Notes under the pieces: model-generated
The model's database searches: none
Told to the model about the DNA's origin: nothing
The model's input: only the letters and a program-made list of their open reading frames with translations
Program-made: the position numbers and the translations under genes
Assembly (NCBI GenBank): GCA_965204725.1
Contig: OZ242005.1
Span: 3,904,001-3,968,000, forward strand
Length of the DNA: 64,000 nucleotides
Direction of reading: 5' to 3'
DNA from: Candidatus Latescibacterota bacterium
GTDB lineage: Bacteria; Latescibacterota; UBA2968; UBA8231
Part shown: piece by piece, positions 53,168 to 56,987 of the stretch
How positions within the stretch are numbered: position 1 is the stretch's first letter
Layout: the number at the start of each line of letters is the position of its first letter

Positions 53168-53273
53168 GCCCGCTGACTTGGTCGAAATGTGCATCGAAAG
53201 AGACGATAACCGAGCCGGTTTCCATGGCCTGTGCCGCCAACCATATATCGTTTAGCGGTATTGGCGTTCCGGC
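53148..53273 (-). pseudogene. 3' remnant of a VapC/PIN toxin
   Basis: Reading the minus strand by hand gives AGTPIPLNDIWLAAQAMETGSVIVSFDAHFDQVSGLRRWIR*, a classic PIN C-terminus; not in the ORF track. Confidence 0.8.
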
Positions 53274-53494
53274 TGGCGAAGGTCTTTTGTCGCCTCTTCA
53301 AACTCGGCCAAATCCGCTGCCGACCAACAGCCAAAGAGATCGGCAAATTCTTCGCGCCGCGAGTGCCGCCTTCCCAGTGCTTGTTCGAGCAACCCTTTAA
53401 TGGTCTTGTTCAAGCTCTTGCCTTCGGCGGCGGCCTTCTCCCTGATTTGCCGGTCCATTTCATCGTCCATTCCGTGAATGGTAATTGATTTCAT
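53252..53494 (-). CDS. FitA-like ribbon-helix-helix antitoxin with a C-terminus altered by a deletion
   Basis: MKSITIHGMDDEM..IREKAAAEGKSLNKTIK, DLFGCWS..D..EF; lies directly before the VapC remnant. Confidence 0.75.
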   Translation of the reverse strand: MKSITIHGMDDEMDRQIREKAAAEGKSLNKTIKGLLEQALGRRHSRREEFADLFGCWSAADLAEFEEATKDLRQPERQYR

Positions 53495-53609: not shown

Positions 53610-54452
53610 AAGCTATCTCATAAATAGTCTGGCTGTGCTACGTTAGTGGTATTCCCTTTCGGAGGTATCTCTTATGGATCTTACAGACGAACAGTGGTCG
53701 ATAGTGTCCCCACTGCTGCCGGCGTGTCCCAAACGCCGCGATGGTCGGGGTCGTCCCTGGCGTTGTAACCGGGCGGTGCTCAATGGTATTCTGTGGATTC
53801 TCCGCACCGGGGCGCCTGGGCATGACCTGCCTGCTCGCTATCCGTCCTACCAGACCTGCCATCGTCGATTCCAACAGTGGTCGTCTGATGGCACCTTTGA
53901 ACATATTCTGCGCACCCTCGCGCACGACTTGCATGAGCGCGGGGGACTTGATGTGAGCGAATGCTTCATCGATGGCCTGTTTGTCGCGGCGAAAAAAGGG
54001 GGGACCGAGTGGGTCCGACCAAGCGGGGCAAAGGTACGAAGCTCATGGCAGTGGCAGACCGCGCTGGTCTTCCTATCGCCGTACTCATCCAAAGTGCTTC
54101 GCCCCACGAAGTCACCCTCGTAGAAGCCACCTTGGAAAACCGATGGGTCCAGCCCCGACCGAAACGACTCATCGGGGACCGAGCCTACGACTCGGATCGA
54201 TTGGATGCGAGCTTGGCCAACCAAGGCATTGAGATGATCGCCCCGCATCGCCGCAATCGCACGCAGGCCAAAACCCAGGACGGGCGGCGGTTGCGGGGCT
54301 ACAAAAGACGCTGGAAAATAGAAAGACTATTTGCTTGGTTGCATAACTTCCGCCGCATCGTGGTTCGATACGAATACTATGCTGAAAACTACCTCGGCTT
54401 TGTACAACTCGGATGCATCCTCATACTGCTACGGTATTTATGAGATAGCTTC
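53609..54452 (+). mobile_element. IS5-family insertion sequence (IS427-like), about 844 bp, TA duplication in a CTAG target
   Basis: Perfect inverted repeats CTAGAAGCTATCTCATAAATA (53606-53626) and TATTTATGAGATAGCTTCTAG (54435-54455). Confidence 0.93.
53674..54443 (+). CDS. IS5-family DDE transposase, two ORFs joined by a programmed -1 frameshift
   Basis: orf[29 protein letters not shown]; A6G6 slippery run at 53992-54003; orf[29 protein letters not shown]. Confidence 0.92.
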
Positions 54453-54496
54453 TAGAATCGCGCAATCAAATAATCCCGAGTGCTGGAGTTTCAGGA

Positions 54497-55045
54497 TCAA
54501 AGCGACGCGAAGATGTCGGTATTCTTCTTTCGATCGAGGATATGCTGGCAGATACTCCATTGGACCTTCAGAGCGGTCATCCGCATCTCGTGGCTTGCTT
54601 TCGAGGCCAATCTTATATCGACCGAGTCACTCGAGTCACTCTCGGTTAGATGCCTTTTGAAGTCCACGTAATGCGAAGCAAGTTCGTCTCCTGACTGCTT
54701 CAGCTTGGGTTGTATCCTCTCGGCAATGACGTTCAGCCAATGAATCTCATTGGCGAGCCGTGTAAAATTGACTAAGTGTTCGGGTCCGCTGTCTGTAGTT
54801 GCAGCGTCAAGACACTCCGAAATCAACTCGTCGATCCGGCGATTAAGATTCGACAAATAATCGATCGGGACTCGGTCAAGCTCTCCTCTGCGTCGCACAG
54901 CCCTGTGAATCCACCAGCCGATGACAACGGTTGTTGTCGCGCTGATCAAGCTGGGAATCGGAAGTTGGGGTTCACGCACTAATGACGTGATGAGTGTGCC
55001 AAGGAGTACGCCGAACACGATCGCGAGGATGTTGAAAGTATTCAT
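54497..55045 (-). CDS. Hypothetical protein with two N-terminal TM helices and a helical C-terminal region
   Basis: Two hydrophobic segments within the first ~45 aa; start overlaps the STAS gene stop (ATGA). Confidence 0.6.
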   Translation of the reverse strand: MNTFNILAIVFGVLLGTLITSLVREPQLPIPSLISATTTVVIGWWIHRAVRRRGELDRVPIDYLSNLNRRIDELISECLDAATTDSGPEHLVNFTRLANEIHWLNVIAERIQPKLKQSGDELASHYVDFKRHLTESDSSDSVDIRLASKASHEMRMTALKVQWSICQHILDRKKNTDIFASL

Positions 55046-55383
55046 GGGCTTGTGCCCGTCGTGTCGTTGGCATGTTTGATGTAGTGGCGGATCTCGAAAT
55101 CGAGCATCGGTTCAGAGCCTGACTCAAAGCGTAGAAGACGCTGAACCTCCTCTATTTCGAATTCTCTGGCGAGGCCCCCGAATGCTTCTTCAAGAAACGA
55201 TGTGGGGTAACCGTATTTAACACCATCAAGTTGAATGGTCACCTGATCATTGGCCTCCTTCGCCTTCAAGAACGCAGGTTTCAGAAGATCTTCCAGAAAC
55301 TCTTGGCCGGATCCAGGTCCCTGTTTCCGGTATCGTGGACCTGGTAGTTCCGTGAATTCTTTAGCGATGTTGATCTTAATCAT
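55042..55383 (-). CDS. STAS-like domain protein (DUF4325-type)
   Basis: INIAKEF...PGPRY...GPGSGQEF, LDGV.YGYPTSFLEEAFGGL signature. Confidence 0.85.
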   Translation of the reverse strand: MIKINIAKEFTELPGPRYRKQGPGSGQEFLEDLLKPAFLKAKEANDQVTIQLDGVKYGYPTSFLEEAFGGLAREFEIEEVQRLLRFESGSEPMLDFEIRHYIKHANDTTGTSP

Positions 55384-56395
55384 TGCTCAACTCCCTAGGT
55401 TGGGCGCACCAACTAAACGCTGTGCCGCGCAGAGAATGGGCGACTTTTTTGAAGTCAAGATCCGCAACAGATCCGACGACGTCAGAAGTTAATACTTGAA
55501 GATTCGACAACGTACCCCTCCTCGCATCCTTTTTCATCTTGGGCAGCCCGAGGCCCCTACCGGGTTTACGTGTGGCAGATCCGATTTTTCCCTCGAAGGC
55601 GTCTTTTAGTAAACTGGTTCGTCCGCGCGAGGAAATCAAAGCACTGGTTTCTTGCAGCATGTTTCTTGCCGGTGCGCTTTTTAGAATACCAATGCCGAGA
55701 TCGATAAAGCTGAAATAGGCAGTTTGATCTCGGCAGTAAACGCTGACAAACCATTTTGGGGGAAAACGTTGCTTCTGACCCCCCGCGTGGTTGTGGGTAT
55801 TTGTCATGACCTCGACAAGAGTCTGGAAACAGGCATTAGTGCATTCCTTGGCGATGGGCATGTGTTCCTTTGCGAAGTCTACTAGTTCCGCAGCTATTTT
55901 CGCACGCACCGTGTTGTTTGACTTTTTCAGTATCAGTCCCTTTGGGAGAGGAAGATCCTCTGGTGGCTTGGCAAACCCGGCGAAGAAACCAGATGCTTTG
56001 AATTCGGAGGCTACGGTTGGATCCCGTGGCAAATTTCCGCCGATCTGCGTGTGACGAGCCCTAGAGTCCATAATTGCTCGAATCAGAAGAAGCGCATCAC
56101 TGGTGAAATTTTGGACATCACCGAGATCGAGAAAAATCTCCATGTCCGGTTGAGTAAGATGGTCCCGTAATGTGTTGCAGTACTTGAGAGTTTCGTTAGG
56201 TGCATCAAAAAGACTGAGCGTTTCGGGTGCTCGTAGCGGTGATCCTCGTTGACGAGAGCGTGTTGGCCGGAGTCGCGTCGGTCGCTCCCGCAACGCCGTT
56301 TGCCGTTTCTGTGCAAGGTGCCGCCGCCGGTCGAATTTTCGCTGCCGACGTTGCTGTCGGAGAGTGAATTCGTGAGTGGACCACAAGTGCTTCAT
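55376..56395 (-). CDS. GHKL/HATPase protein with N-terminal STAS-like region (anti-sigma-kinase-like)
   Basis: LDLGDVQNF.SDALLL STAS-like segment; N box EVMTNTHNHA, G1 DLGIGI, G2 GRGLGLP, terminal GT. Confidence 0.82.
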   Translation of the reverse strand: MKHLWSTHEFTLRQQRRQRKFDRRRHLAQKRQTALRERPTRLRPTRSRQRGSPLRAPETLSLFDAPNETLKYCNTLRDHLTQPDMEIFLDLGDVQNFTSDALLLIRAIMDSRARHTQIGGNLPRDPTVASEFKASGFFAGFAKPPEDLPLPKGLILKKSNNTVRAKIAAELVDFAKEHMPIAKECTNACFQTLVEVMTNTHNHAGGQKQRFPPKWFVSVYCRDQTAYFSFIDLGIGILKSAPARNMLQETSALISSRGRTSLLKDAFEGKIGSATRKPGRGLGLPKMKKDARRGTLSNLQVLTSDVVGSVADLDFKKVAHSLRGTAFSWCAQPRELSND

Positions 56396-56987
56396 AGCCG
56401 ATGTCTCTCGATTTCATAACTAGTTACCCTCCAGCACCGGGAGCCGTTTGTCGTGCGACCGTAGCACCCCAGCGAGGTCGGTCAAGCTAAACCCCGGCTC
56501 GCAACAGCACTCCAGCCGTTGTTCAGCCCGATAGAGACGACTACAGAGGAAGACCGTGGCGGGATCCGGCGAAGGTAAGTCGCAAGTCTGCTGAGCACAG
56601 GCGTTGACCACGGTGCCTGTGGGCGGATCGCGGATGCCGCTTGCATCTGCCTTGCCATGTCCCTAGTCATGAATCCCCCAGTACGTTAAGGTCCATAGTT
56701 AGACATAAAAATAGACAAACCCCTTTTTTGGATTTTGTCAAGGAGATGAACGCAGGCAAGGGTCGAGTAGTTCCCTAAAGAGGTTTGTAGGCCCTTCGGC
56801 AGGGCTTCCGGTTTGGTTGCCTTATCGCAGGTCCAGTATCTACTTCATCTTGTACGCTGTGCTCAGTCGCCTCGGCTACATGCGGCTTTCTGTTCTTATA
56901 CTCGGAGACAAATCTACGGGTGTGCAGGTTGCGACAAACGCATTTGCCGTGCAGAATAGCCTGAACCAACAACGCAGGAGGAACGCA

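What the first reader, a model, noticed from the sequence alone, without database searches (positions are those of the whole stretch)
54497..56395. Kinase, STAS and membrane-protein operon: candidate phosphorylation-switched defence or toxin-antitoxin system
Seen: three translationally coupled minus-strand genes with overlapping stops and starts, in a visibly lower-GC patch next to an IS5 element, an IS630 relic and a broken VapBC locus. Gene 1 has a STAS-like segment plus a GHKL ATPase (EVMTN..HA, DLGIG, GRGLGL), and I saw no HisKA domain. Gene 2 is a stand-alone STAS (DUF4325-like) with a Ser in GYPTSFLEE at the position expected for an anti-anti-sigma phosphosite. Gene 3 is an unknown 2-TM protein. 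Known: SpoIIAB/SpoIIAA and RsbW/RsbV are GHKL Ser-kinase/STAS partner switches, and from memory similar kinase-STAS pairs occur next to PIN toxins in mobile regions. Inference: with no sigma factor or phosphatase here, the switch may control a membrane-disrupting effector (abortive infection) instead.
Basis: partly seen in the sequence, partly recalled or inferred. Interest (0 to 1): 0.78.

Follow-up and report, generated by a model that had tools for sequence, protein, structure and literature searches.

The report
Kinase, STAS and membrane-protein gene cassette
Three overlapping genes encode a serine/threonine kinase, a small switch protein it probably phosphorylates, and a membrane protein the switch is predicted to bind; the set resembles a recently described phage-defence toxin-antitoxin system but carries a membrane protein where that system has a nuclease.

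Summary
Three minus-strand ORFs (339, 113 and 182 aa) overlap by 8 and 4 bases in a patch of about 50% GC.

- **Gene 1:** a polybasic N-terminal helix, a STAS-like domain and a SpoIIAB/RsbW-like GHKL kinase domain, with no HisKA.
- **Gene 2:** a stand-alone DUF4325 STAS protein. Its best match among solved structures is VapS.
- **Gene 3:** two predicted TM helices followed by a cytoplasmic four-helix bundle, with no known family.

The cassette is conserved. Of 33 related genome loci from at least 10 lineages, 33 carry gene 2 and 30 carry a gene 3 homologue. Similar cassettes sit in 2 phage and 8 plasmid records.

The closest known system is VapKSC (Chambers et al., EMBO J 2026): an ssDNA-activated STAS-GHKL kinase, a STAS antitoxin and a PIN toxin. 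Here the PIN slot holds a membrane protein.

A controlled complex prediction supports gene 2 binding the gene 3 bundle (score 0.85, best control 0.00). The conserved Thr61-Ser62 of gene 2 lies in the predicted interface, as VapS Ser48 does in VapS-VapC.

Best reading (about 0.55): a phosphorylation-released membrane effector that acts as a defence or toxin-antitoxin module. It is a new variant of a known kind. Toxicity, phosphorylation, the trigger and phage protection are all untested.

The parts
55376..56395 (-). g1: 339-aa STAS-GHKL protein kinase (VapK-like)
   Evidence: ORF. 93 homologues. 2903 clusters at 50% identity match the family profile at E <= 1e-3, and 689 at <= 1e-30. Model pLDDT 83.8.
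56249..56395 (-). g1 residues 1-49: polybasic N-terminal helix (17 K+R against 3 D+E)
   Evidence: Helix 8-36 in the model. The basic excess is kept in 32 of 33 aligned homologues; the exception is N-terminally truncated. A role in nucleic-acid binding is inference only.
55964..56254 (-). g1 residues 48-144: STAS-like domain
   Evidence: VIA-align: 1vc1_A Z 8.9 (92 residues aligned, rmsd 2.7); SpoIIAA 1h4y_A Z 7.8; SLC26 STAS 9iar_A Z 8.3. These Z values sit near the level the tool calls common, so the assignment also rests on the motif D90 ... F97-T98.
55388..55942 (-). g1 residues 152-336: GHKL (Bergerat-fold) kinase domain of SpoIIAB/RsbW type
   Evidence: 1l0o_A Z 13.1 (rmsd 2.8, 136 of 141 residues); RsbW 6m37_C Z 12.4. 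CheA P4 scores only Z about 8.7. N box E195/N199/H203, G1 box D232-G234-G236 and G2 box G281-G283 are invariant or nearly invariant.
55042..55383 (-). g2: 113-aa stand-alone DUF4325 STAS-like protein (VapS-like); proposed kinase substrate and effector-binding switch
   Evidence: Pfam PF14213, E 1.4e-11. Homologue directly downstream of g1 in 33 of 33 loci. The best PDB sequence match of the family profile is VapS 9z7o_A, E 0.0078.
55198..55203 (-). g2 codons T61 (55201-55203) and S62 (55198-55200): candidate phospho-acceptor pair
   Evidence: S62 is present in 33 of 33 homologues. Position 61 is T in 29, S in 3 and R in 1 of 33. The ungapped HMM alignment puts VapS S48 (chain residue 66) opposite T61. 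Both residues lie in the predicted g2-g3 interface.
54497..55045 (-). g3: 182-aa membrane protein. TM helix 3-24, then a long helix 30-84 whose start is the second hydrophobic segment, then a cytoplasmic four-helix bundle to residue 171. Proposed effector.
   Evidence: Model pLDDT 86.9. Hydrophobicity. 39 homologues. Near and far third-slot families match by hhalign at probability 94.5%, E 8.3e-8. No family or fold match beyond generic helical bundles.
54644..54646 (-). g3 codon T134, in the conserved LT(E/D)(S/T) motif
   Evidence: The only nearly invariant column among 39 sequences. It contacts g2 residues 60-62 in the predicted complex.
53674..54443 (+). IS5-family transposase in two overlapping frames, abutting the 3' end of the cassette
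   Evidence: DUF4096 E 2.8e-28; DDE_Tnp_1 E 3.5e-17.
53252..53494 (-). Orphan RHH (FitA/VapB-like) antitoxin gene with no toxin gene after it
   Evidence: FitA-like_RHH E 1.8e-6; VAPB_antitox E 6.4e-5. The space downstream is taken by the end of the XdhC gene.

Best explanation
**What it is.** The three genes form a mobile, self-contained kinase-switch-effector module of the VapKSC type, with a small inner-membrane protein in place of the PIN nuclease.

**Proposed mechanism**
1. At rest, the DUF4325 STAS protein g2 sits on the cytoplasmic four-helix bundle of g3 and keeps it inactive. This makes g2 antitoxin-like.
2. A signal activates g1, a STAS-GHKL Ser/Thr kinase. The signal may be nucleic acid produced during phage infection or DNA damage, sensed through the STAS/GHKL groove and perhaps the polybasic N-terminal helix.
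3. g1 phosphorylates g2 on T61, or on S62.
4. Phosphorylation breaks the g2-g3 interface. The freed g3 acts at the membrane, most likely by oligomerising and impairing membrane integrity. That would stop growth and abort the infection.

**Shown here**
- The gene anatomy, the protein folds and the intact ATP-binding motifs.
- Conservation of the trio across phyla and on phages and plasmids.
- Distant homology of g1 and g2 to VapK-like and VapS-like proteins.
- A controlled model prediction that g2 binds g3 through the surface carrying T61/S62.

**Inferred only**
- The kinase activity and its site.
- The trigger.
- Toxicity of g3.
- Any defence phenotype.
For: **Anatomy and folds**
- g1 residues 152-336 align to SpoIIAB at Z 13.1, and residues 48-144 to STAS proteins at Z 7.8-8.9.
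- The catalytic N, G1 and G2 boxes are invariant or nearly invariant in 33 homologues.
- g2 matches DUF4325 at E 1.4e-11.

**Link to the known system**
- The g2 family profile finds VapS (9z7o_A) as its best hit among 177,635 PDB sequences. The E-value is marginal (0.0078). VapS S48 aligns to g2 T61.
- The g1 profile was compared with six DUF4325-linked HATPase kinases, one of them from a PIN-containing operon. hhalign gave probability 89.9%, E 1.7e-6.
- VapKSC is experimentally shown to work by kinase-dependent release of a toxin from a STAS antitoxin whose Ser48 is buried in the interface (PMC13373217, section 13).

**Conservation**
- 33 loci come from Latescibacterota, Vicinamibacterales, Arenicellales, Binatia, Bacteroidota, Ignavibacteriota, Bacilli, Cloacimonadaceae, Bdellovibrionota and Sumerlaeia.
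- g2 is present in 33 of 33 and a g3 homologue in 30 of 33. The misses are one contig end and two decayed cassettes.
- Both decayed cassettes (L012, L014) keep g2 intact but have a truncated g1 and a lost or fragmentary g3. That is the pattern expected if g2 is an antitoxin.

**Mobile and defence context**
- Cassettes of similar architecture occur in a Helicobacter prophage and in Marinobacter phage AS1 beside Cro/CI.
- One lies just after an XRE repressor in a phage-like Pasteurella plasmid.
- Others lie on Leptospira, Acinetobacter, Vibrio and Novosphingobium plasmids, often beside MNT/HepT, RelE/ParE or MazEF pairs.
- The table for Francisella phage KIRK lists a 293-aa protein, a DUF4325 protein and a TM protein between cI and the integrase.
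- Clear PADLOC hits lie within 6 kb in 16 of 33 loci: type I and II R-M, AbiE, AbiT, Thoeris TIR, Kiwa, Gabija, PD-T4-6 and others.

**Predicted binding**
- g2 with g3 residues 48-182 scored ipSAE 0.85 (three runs: 0.84-0.87). The best of 3 controls scored 0.00.
- That mark was reached by 116 of 157 solved complexes and 2 of 215 mismatched pairs. The three runs agree in at least 85% of their contacts, and partner pLDDT is 90-91.
- The interface includes g2 residues 56-62 and the g3 residue T134. I know of no solved STAS/four-helix-bundle complex, so this pass is unlikely to be a recalled structure.

**No reset component**
- The cassette itself holds only these three genes, with no phosphatase or sigma factor among them. 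The window's flanking genes scanned against Pfam also showed neither. This fits a one-way, suicidal switch.
Against: - No experiment bears on this family.
- g3 has no similarity to any known toxin, pore or holin. Foldseek found only generic or designed helical bundles, none at E <= 0.001. The protein atlas found only unnamed clusters.
- PADLOC 2.0 has no model matching any of the three proteins.
- In the window, the neighbours are housekeeping genes.
- In Latescibacterota relatives, the cassette again lies divergent from an ORF of about 770-810 aa, the size of the window's penicillin amidase; I did not identify that ORF. If it is the same gene, the cassette has been resident for a long time rather than recently acquired.
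- The defence-neighbourhood count has no random-locus control. Six further loci have only generic hits (helicase, radical SAM).
- The link to VapS is weak by sequence (E 0.0078). hhalign against a single VapS-like protein gave probability 12%.
- The GHKL homology is partly generic.
- The third-slot proteins of the phage and plasmid cassettes share the architecture but mostly do not match the g3 profile. Only 1 of 10 (L037) matched, at E 5e-4.
- A complex score is the model's own confidence, not a measurement.
Confidence: 0.55

Rival explanations
1. g3 is a membrane anchor or sensor, not an effector. It would recruit the STAS protein, and through it the kinase, to the membrane, or report envelope or injection stress to the kinase. 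The output would then be some other substrate of g1 encoded elsewhere.
For: - g3 has no toxin-like feature, and its cytoplasmic domain is a plain four-helix bundle like those of many receptors. The Foldseek rows include PcaY and NarQ sensor bundles, all weak.
- Predicted g2-g3 binding fits anchoring as well as it fits inhibition.
- T134 of g3 is nearly invariant and could itself be a kinase target.
Against: - The module is strictly three genes in 30 of 33 loci, with no conserved fourth output gene.
- It travels alone on phages and plasmids.
- In the sister system the third slot is the toxin.
- The two decayed cassettes keep g2 and lose g1 and g3. That fits a toxin-antitoxin pair better than a sensor.
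Confidence: 0.2
2. The cassette is a non-lethal superinfection-exclusion or plasmid/prophage-maintenance module. g3 would block DNA entry or another membrane step of incoming elements, or stabilise the host element, under kinase/STAS control. The cell would not be killed.
For: - The cassette sits in the lysogeny or immunity region of temperate phages: Marinobacter AS1 beside Cro/CI, a Pasteurella phage-like plasmid after an XRE repressor, and Francisella KIRK between cI and the integrase.
- It sits beside addiction modules on plasmids.
- From recalled knowledge, small TM proteins are typical exclusion factors.
Against: - Most copies found are chromosomal (33 loci) and often lie beside abortive-infection and R-M genes.
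- The closest characterised relative acts through a growth-arresting toxin.
- A kinase switch is not needed for a constitutive entry block.
Confidence: 0.15
3. It is an ordinary partner-switching stress regulator of the RsbW/RsbV or SpoIIAB/SpoIIAA type. Its sigma factor and phosphatase would be encoded elsewhere, and g3 would be an unrelated co-transcribed membrane protein.
For: - The best structural matches of the g1 kinase domain are SpoIIAB and RsbW.
- g2 belongs to the STAS clan.
Against: - None of the three cassette genes is a sigma factor or a PP2C phosphatase, and the window's flanking genes scanned against Pfam show neither. The flanks of the 33 related loci were scanned only against PADLOC.
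- Distribution is patchy across at least 10 lineages and on phages and plasmids.
- g3 co-occurs tightly with the pair (30 of 33) and is predicted to bind g2.
- g1 carries its own STAS domain and a polybasic helix, which anti-sigma kinases lack.
Confidence: 0.05

Closest known systems
VapKSC (VapK kinase, VapS STAS antitoxin, VapC PIN toxin); Chambers, Rani, Min, Villa, Corbett, EMBO J 2026, PMC13373217 (sections 7, 11-14 and 33 read)
   Same: - Three-gene operon in the same order: kinase, small STAS protein, effector.
- The kinase is a STAS domain plus a SpoIIAB-like GHKL domain.
- The STAS protein is about 113-116 aa, with a conserved Ser/Thr at the start of helix 2 that lies in the interface with the third protein. 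That interface is solved for VapS-VapC and predicted here.
- VapS is the best PDB sequence match of the g2 family.
- The cassette has no phosphatase.
- Distribution is patchy and often near defence genes: 36% of vapKSC loci within 10 kb in the paper, and 16 of 33 loci within 6 kb here.
   Different: - The third gene is a 2-TM protein with a cytoplasmic four-helix bundle, not a PIN nuclease.
- g1 has an extra polybasic N-terminal helix.
- g1 and g2 are only distantly related to the PIN-linked proteins (hhalign E 1.7e-6 and 2.3e-3). They form their own large family.
- The g2 family carries a PGPR ... SG ... GY(P/G)TSFLEE motif set.
- The ssDNA trigger and the phage protection shown for VapKSC are untested here.
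CapK/CapS regulators of immune operons (same paper)
   Same: - A STAS-GHKL kinase phosphorylates a conserved Ser of a STAS protein encoded immediately downstream.
- Phosphorylation breaks a protein-protein interface.
   Different: - CapS carries a wHTH domain and is a repressor. g2 is 113 aa and has only a DUF4325 match.
- CapK has an N-terminal HTH. g1 has a single basic helix instead.
- CapKS sits upstream of multi-gene immune operons. Here the only downstream gene is g3.
SpoIIAB/SpoIIAA and RsbW/RsbV partner-switching modules
   Same: - The best structural matches of the g1 kinase domain are SpoIIAB (Z 13.1) and RsbW (Z 12.4).
- The substrate has a STAS fold with a hydroxyl residue at the helix-2 N-terminus.
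   Different: - No sigma factor and no PP2C phosphatase among the three cassette genes.
- The kinase has its own STAS domain fused to it.
- The predicted partner of the STAS protein is a membrane protein.
- The module is mobile.
Membrane-effector abortive-infection systems, such as TM effectors of CBASS, Pycsar and Thoeris (comparison recalled, not tested here)
   Same: A small TM protein serves as the terminal output of a sensor-switch cascade.
   Different: Those effectors are gated by nucleotide second messengers. Here the proposed gate is protein phosphorylation of a bound STAS inhibitor. g3 matched no PADLOC model.

Membership tests
VapKSC | Kinase with an N-terminal STAS domain fused to a GHKL kinase domain | tested here: met
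   residues 48-144 match STAS folds (Z 7.8-8.9) and residues 152-336 match SpoIIAB (Z 13.1). ATP-binding boxes are invariant or nearly invariant. Profile-profile match to DUF4325-linked kinases, including a PIN-linked one: probability 89.9%, E 1.7e-6.
VapKSC | Small stand-alone STAS protein encoded directly after the kinase, with a conserved Ser/Thr on helix 2 | tested here: met
   DUF4325 E 1.4e-11. Best PDB hit is VapS, E 0.0078, with S48 opposite T61. Position 61 is T or S in 32 of 33 and S62 is present in 33 of 33. g2 follows g1 in 33 of 33 loci.
VapKSC | Third gene encodes a VapC-like PIN nuclease toxin | tested here: not met
   g3 has no PIN match in Pfam. It is modelled as two TM helices plus a four-helix bundle. 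For comparison, a true PIN third gene was seen at locus L081.
VapKSC | STAS protein binds the third protein, with the phosphosite inside the interface | tested here: inconclusive
   Prediction only: ipSAE 0.85 against a best control of 0.00. g2 residues 56-62 lie in the interface. No binding measurement exists.
VapKSC | Kinase activated by ssDNA through a conserved aromatic residue (VapK F54, CapK W68) | not testable with these tools
   No VapK or CapK sequence was available to align. g1 has conserved aromatics F97, F132, F137, F138 and F141 in its STAS domain, but their equivalence to F54 or W68 is unknown.
VapKSC | Protects against phage; toxin arrests growth and the STAS protein rescues | not testable with these tools
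   Needs experiments.
CapK/CapS | STAS protein carries a C-terminal wHTH and represses an adjacent immune operon | tested here: not met
   g2 is 113 aa and has only a DUF4325 match covering residues 25-92. No multi-gene operon follows; an IS5 element lies after g3.
SpoIIAB/SpoIIAA-type partner switch | GHKL Ser kinase plus a STAS substrate | tested here: met
SpoIIAB/SpoIIAA-type partner switch | A cognate sigma factor bound by the kinase, and a PP2C phosphatase that resets the switch, in the locus | tested here: not met
   None of the three cassette genes is a sigma factor or phosphatase. The window's flanking genes scanned against Pfam are MoxR AAA, VWA, XdhC, penicillin amidase, M10 protease and an RND pump. 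Flanks of the 33 related loci were scanned only against PADLOC, not Pfam.
Type II toxin-antitoxin | Protein antitoxin binds and neutralises a toxic protein encoded next to it | tested here: inconclusive
   Predicted g2-g3 binding. Both decayed cassettes keep g2. Toxicity is untested.

The most novel reading that the evidence does not exclude
This is a widespread anti-phage or toxin-antitoxin family that I could not find described. About 690 to 2900 protein clusters at 50% identity match the kinase profile, across many phyla and on temperate phages and plasmids. In it, a nucleic-acid-sensing STAS-GHKL kinase phosphorylates a STAS antitoxin and thereby releases a two-TM, four-helix-bundle membrane toxin. 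That would be a bacterial immune effector at the membrane gated directly by protein phosphorylation rather than by a nucleotide messenger. It would also show that the VapK/VapS switch is a portable front end that can be wired to unrelated effectors.
Probability: 0.4. Interest if true: 0.75.

Novelty: new variant of a known kind. Interest (0 to 1): 0.62.

Why it matters
**A second effector class.** If the reading is right, the kinase-STAS switch described in 2026 for VapKSC and CapKS has a second, mechanistically different effector class: a membrane protein.

**Size of the family.** This variant may be at least as common as the PIN form.
- 2903 clusters match the kinase profile at E <= 1e-3, and 689 at <= 1e-30. 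The weak end of that list may include VapK- or CapK-type kinases.
- The paper reports 289 vapKSC loci.

**Annotation.** The reading would assign a role to DUF4325 proteins, to an unnamed kinase family and to an unnamed membrane-protein family. All three are currently annotated as hypothetical on phages, plasmids and chromosomes.

**A test system.** The cassette is a compact three-gene system for asking how phosphorylation of a STAS domain can gate a membrane protein.

**Specific predictions to test.**
- The acceptor pair is T61/S62 of g2.
- The interface is g2 residues 56-62 and 90-100 against g3 residues 88-102 and 120-137.
- g3 T134 is a key contact.

Tried and rejected
- **Family scans.** Direct scans of g1 and g3 (Pfam, NCBIfam, PADLOC) and PDB sequence searches of g1 alone and as a profile gave nothing usable. 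The weak MCM_N, Peptidase_A17 and IF-2 hits were discarded as chance.
- **g3 fold and atlas searches.** Foldseek on the g3 model gave only generic or designed helical bundles, none at E <= 0.001. The protein atlas gave only unnamed clusters. So g3's function cannot be read from its fold.
- **Earlier findings of this scan.** The look-up by sequence returned nothing.
- **Expression.** No RNA holder was listed among the sequencing runs. I did not lay reads.
- **Promoter and terminator scan.** Scanning 54200-56900 found no promoter-like site and no more terminator-like sites than the shuffles.
- **IS630 relic.**
- **A fused form set aside.** Most DUF4325 matches in Gammaproteobacteria lie in open frames of about 340-370 aa. 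I did not examine their architecture or context.
- **Sampling in the Gammaproteobacteria survey.** I fetched 20 of about 26 stand-alone DUF4325 matches. In several of them (L080, L086, L095, L096, L099) my ORF selection did not recover the DUF4325 frame, so their context was not interpreted.
- **Kinase-substrate geometry.** I could not test which of T61 or S62 faces the ATP site, because the single complex job went to the g2-g3 question.
- **Literature.** The K-S-TM cassette was not found in print.
  - 'DUF4325' returned 3 papers, none describing it.
  - 'STAS + anti-phage + defense system + kinase' returned 32 papers, of which 15 were listed.
  - 'VapKSC/CapK/VapS': among the 20 papers listed of 560, only the Chambers paper and its preprint concern VapKSC.
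  - 'STAS + GHKL + transmembrane + phage' returned 0 papers.
  - The Chambers text has no occurrence of 'transmembrane' or 'DUF4325'.
  - Its supplementary datasets EV1-EV3 were not read and could list such loci.


Full report
**1. What is in the sequence**

One search lists three minus-strand ORFs: g1 at 55376-56395 (339 aa), g2 at 55042-55383 (113 aa) and g3 at 54497-55045 (182 aa).

One search shows the junctions. The g2 ATG sits inside the last codons of g1, an 8-base overlap, with GGGAG about 10 nt upstream. The g2 stop and the g3 start share ATGA.

GC is about 0.50 across 54250-56250 and 0.62-0.68 in the flanks.

An IS5-type transposase in two frames (DUF4096 E 2.8e-28, DDE_Tnp_1 E 3.5e-17) abuts the 3' end of the cassette. 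An orphan RHH antitoxin gene lies beyond it.

I could not confirm the IS630 relic. The wider flanks are housekeeping genes: a MoxR-like AAA protein, a VWA CoxE-like protein, XdhC, penicillin amidase, an M10 protease and an RND pump.

**2. The three proteins**

*g1.* It matched no library family and no PDB sequence.
- It has 93 word-indexed homologues.
- Searched as a profile, 2903 clusters at 50% identity match at E <= 1e-3, 1906 at <= 1e-10 and 689 at <= 1e-30.
- An alignment of 33 members keeps E195, N199, H203, D232-G234-G236 and G281-G283, the ATP-binding boxes of GHKL enzymes. E195 is kept in 32 of 33 and the others in all 33.
- The AlphaFold model has pLDDT 83.8.
- Residues 152-336 align to SpoIIAB (1l0o_A: Z 13.1, rmsd 2.8 A, 136 residues) and RsbW (6m37_C: Z 12.4). 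Both stand clearly above CheA P4 (Z about 8.7).
- Residues 48-144 align to STAS proteins: TM1442 Z 8.9, SpoIIAA Z 7.8.
- Residues 8-36 form one long helix with 17 K+R against 3 D+E. That basic excess is kept in 32 of 33 homologues.
- No HisKA element is present.

*g2.* It matches Pfam DUF4325 (STAS-like) at E 1.4e-11.
- Among 33 family members, S62 is invariant. Position 61 is T in 29, S in 3 and R in 1.
- The family profile's best hit among 177,635 PDB sequences is Escherichia VapS (9z7o_A). The E-value is marginal at 0.0078.
- The ungapped alignment places the VapS phosphosite (chain residue 66, which is S48 if the chain carries an 18-residue tag) opposite T61.

*g3.* It has no family.
- Its model (pLDDT 86.9) has a TM helix at 3-24, a long helix at 30-84 whose first part is the second hydrophobic segment, and helices at 87-111, 113-134 and 144-171. 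Together these form a four-helix bundle.
- RAVRRRGE follows the second segment, so the bundle should be cytoplasmic. This rests on the positive-inside rule and is an inference.
- Foldseek found only generic bundles.

**3. Conservation of the trio**

A pattern scan of one genome per species, using the g1 alignment, returned 33 loci. They come from Latescibacterota, Vicinamibacterales, Arenicellales and another gammaproteobacterium, Binatia, Bacteroidota, Ignavibacteriota, Bacilli, Cloacimonadaceae, Bdellovibrionota, Sumerlaeia and one unclassified bacterium.

With HMMs built from my alignments, g2 follows g1 in 33 of 33 loci and a g3 homologue is adjacent in 30 of 33. Many of the scored sequences were in the alignments, so those matches are by construction.

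An independent check agrees. Before pooling, the close g3 family and the distant third-slot family matched by hhalign at probability 94.5%, E 8.3e-8.

The three misses are:
- L009, where the contig ends.
- L012 and L014, which are decayed cassettes with an N-terminally truncated g1, a missing or fragmentary g3 and an intact g2.

In L008 the g3 homologue is inverted.

The only nearly invariant g3 column is T134, in an LT(E/D)(S/T) motif.

**4. Mobile elements**

tblastn with g1 and g2 found cassettes of similar architecture in 2 phage and 8 plasmid records. Each has a kinase-sized protein, then a DUF4325 or 'STAS-like' protein, then a small protein with N-terminal hydrophobic segments. (The Vibrio vulnificus record, L040, lacks the kinase gene; the Acinetobacter wuhouensis record, L037, has only a 163-aa ORF in the kinase slot.)
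- A Helicobacter prophage.
- Marinobacter phage AS1, beside Cro/CI.
- A Leptospira plasmid, beside MNT/HepT.
- Acinetobacter plasmids, beside RelE/ParE.
- Vibrio plasmids, one beside MazEF.
- A Novosphingobium plasmid, where the third ORF is unannotated but present.
- A phage-like Pasteurella plasmid, directly after an XRE repressor.

The gene table for Francisella phage KIRK lists a 293-aa protein, a 112-aa DUF4325 protein and a 125-aa TM protein between cI and the integrase (passage seen).

Most of these third proteins do not match the g3 profile. Only 1 of 10 (L037) matched, at E 5e-4. For them I can claim shared architecture, not homology.

**5. Neighbourhood**

I scanned 272 flank ORFs against PADLOC at E <= 1e-8. 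These were ORFs of at least 110 aa, chosen greedily without overlap, within about 6 kb of the 33 cassettes.
- 16 loci have clear defence components: AbiEi/AbiEii, AbiTii, type I, II and III R-M, PDC-S01, PD-Lambda-2, mad3, PD-T4-6/mad6, PDC-S04, ThsB TIR, a NucC-like protein, Kiwa KwaA/KwaB, GajA/GajB, a caspase-like protein and Orf5/HEC-06.
- 6 loci have only generic hits (radical SAM, SNF2 or other helicases, HEAT, an ABC-like protein).
- 11 loci have none.

I ran no random-locus control, so this is suggestive rather than a measured enrichment.

**6. The known relative**

Chambers et al. (EMBO J 2026, PMC13373217; I read sections 7, 11-14 and 33) describe two systems.
- CapK (HTH-STAS-GHKL kinase, activated by ssDNA) with CapS (STAS-wHTH repressor).
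- vapKSC: VapK (STAS + GHKL), VapS (STAS with a short tail; an antitoxin whose S48 is buried in the solved VapS-VapC interface; S48E abolishes binding and rescue) and VapC (PIN toxin).

They report 289 vapKSC loci, 36% of them near defence genes, and about 2-log protection against phage Bas42.

Matelska et al. 2017 had noted a PIN group 'transcriptionally coupled to DUF4325' (passage seen).

In a sample of 400 Gammaproteobacteria, 59 genomes carry DUF4325. I fetched 20 stand-alone loci and found several arrangements:
- One HATPase + DUF4325 + PIN operon (L081).
- Six loci of the K-S type with an unannotated small third ORF (L082, L088, L091, L092, L094, L097). An N-terminal hydrophobic segment was detected in five of them.
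- Two DEAD-helicase + HATPase + DUF4325 loci.
- Loci in R-M or methyltransferase contexts.

So the slot after the STAS gene does vary between subfamilies.

The g1 profile aligns to six of these DUF4325-linked kinases, including the PIN-linked one, at probability 89.9%, E 1.7e-6. Against the PIN-linked kinase alone it gives 71.5%, E 3.6e-5. The g2 profile against a single VapS-like protein is weak: 12%, E 2.3e-3.

**7. Does the STAS protein bind the membrane protein?**

- The ipSAE scores were 0.87, 0.84 and 0.85, median 0.85. The best of 3 controls was 0.00.
- That mark was reached by 116 of 157 solved complexes and 2 of 215 mismatched pairs. The tool notes these counts hold only roughly when the user supplies the alignments.
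- The runs agree in at least 85% of contacts, and partner pLDDT is 90-91.
- On g2 the interface comprises residues 13, 15-17 (the PGPR motif), 21, 56-62, 65 and 90-100.
- On g3 it comprises residues 88-102 and 120-137.
- g2 T61 touches g3 residues 130, 131 and 134. g2 S62 touches g3 residue 134.

The model supports binding but does not show it. The geometry repeats the logic of VapS-VapC: the conserved hydroxyl pair lies in the interface, so a phosphate there should break it.

**8. Reading**

Most likely (about 0.55), this is a VapKSC-like, phosphorylation-released effector module whose effector acts at the membrane. That would make it a toxin-antitoxin or abortive-infection defence cassette. 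The trigger may be nucleic acid, by analogy with CapK and VapK and given the polybasic helix, but that step is the least supported.

The rivals are g3 as an anchor or sensor (0.2), non-lethal exclusion or element maintenance (0.15), and an ordinary sigma-factor partner switch (0.05).

The cassette is not a member of VapKSC as defined, because the PIN toxin feature was tested and not met. It plausibly works like VapKSC.

**9. Novelty and limits**

I found no description of the kinase-STAS-TM cassette (searches; the Chambers text has no 'transmembrane' or 'DUF4325'). That paper's supplementary datasets were not read.

The concept was published in 2026 and stresses modularity, so this is a new variant of a known kind rather than a new category.

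All functional steps remain inference.

Noticed in passing
L048 (G000:C1:1907124-1910312), ORF 1258-1791 +: The same genome holds a second DUF4325 protein (E 4.8e-13). It resembles the VapS type (…VVLSFKRVDILIAAFLNAAIGQLYG…) but has Ala-Ala where the Ser/Thr would be. No kinase ORF is evident in the 3.2-kb locus.
   Followed up: partly
L012 6163-7489 and L014 6073-6893: Two Arenicellales loci carry decayed cassettes. g1 is N-terminally truncated, g3 is lost or reduced to a 69-aa fragment, and g2 is intact. This is the order of decay expected for a toxin-antitoxin pair in which g2 is the antitoxin.
   Followed up: partly
L008 7259-8044 (- strand): In one Vicinamibacterales genome the g3 homologue lies directly after g2 but on the opposite strand, as a 261-aa ORF (E 3e-36 to the g3 profile). 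It looks like a local inversion.
   Followed up: partly
L040 3501-4223 (Vibrio vulnificus plasmid) and L083 3095-4755: These loci have a DUF4325 gene followed by a small TM protein but no adjacent kinase gene. In L083 the pair lies downstream of an 8xMP octameric membrane protein gene. The STAS-TM pair may be able to exist without the kinase.
   Followed up: no
L093 3429-6443 and L098 3470-6686: A different DUF4325 arrangement in Gammaproteobacteria: a DEAD-box helicase (616-649 aa), then a HATPase_c kinase (287 aa), then DUF4325, with no same-strand third gene.
   Followed up: no
L084 863-5060 and L086 365-3142: Stand-alone DUF4325 genes sit inside restriction-modification-like contexts. One lies between a ResIII helicase and an N6_N4 methylase. 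The other lies upstream of a DUF1156 methyltransferase.
   Followed up: no
Gammaproteobacteria sample: Most of the best DUF4325 matches lie inside open frames of about 340-370 aa rather than small stand-alone genes. This looks like a separate fused architecture, which I did not analyse.
   Followed up: no
window 53674-54443: The IS5-family transposase is split into two overlapping frames: DUF4096 at 53674-54123 and the DDE domain at 53961-54443. This could be programmed frameshifting or a broken copy.
   Followed up: no
L001-L003 and L007, upstream of the cassette: In Latescibacterota relatives the cassette lies divergent from an ORF of about 770-810 aa, the size of the window's penicillin amidase (not checked by Pfam). 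In L002, L003 and L007 AbiE genes (AbiEi, plus AbiEii in L002 and L003) lie just beyond it. If the large ORF is the amidase, the cassette's position is syntenic in this lineage.
   Followed up: partly
control genomes: The DUF4325 family also matches, above its Pfam cut-off, in the named Escherichia coli and Methanosarcina acetivorans control genomes. Those loci were not examined.
   Followed up: no
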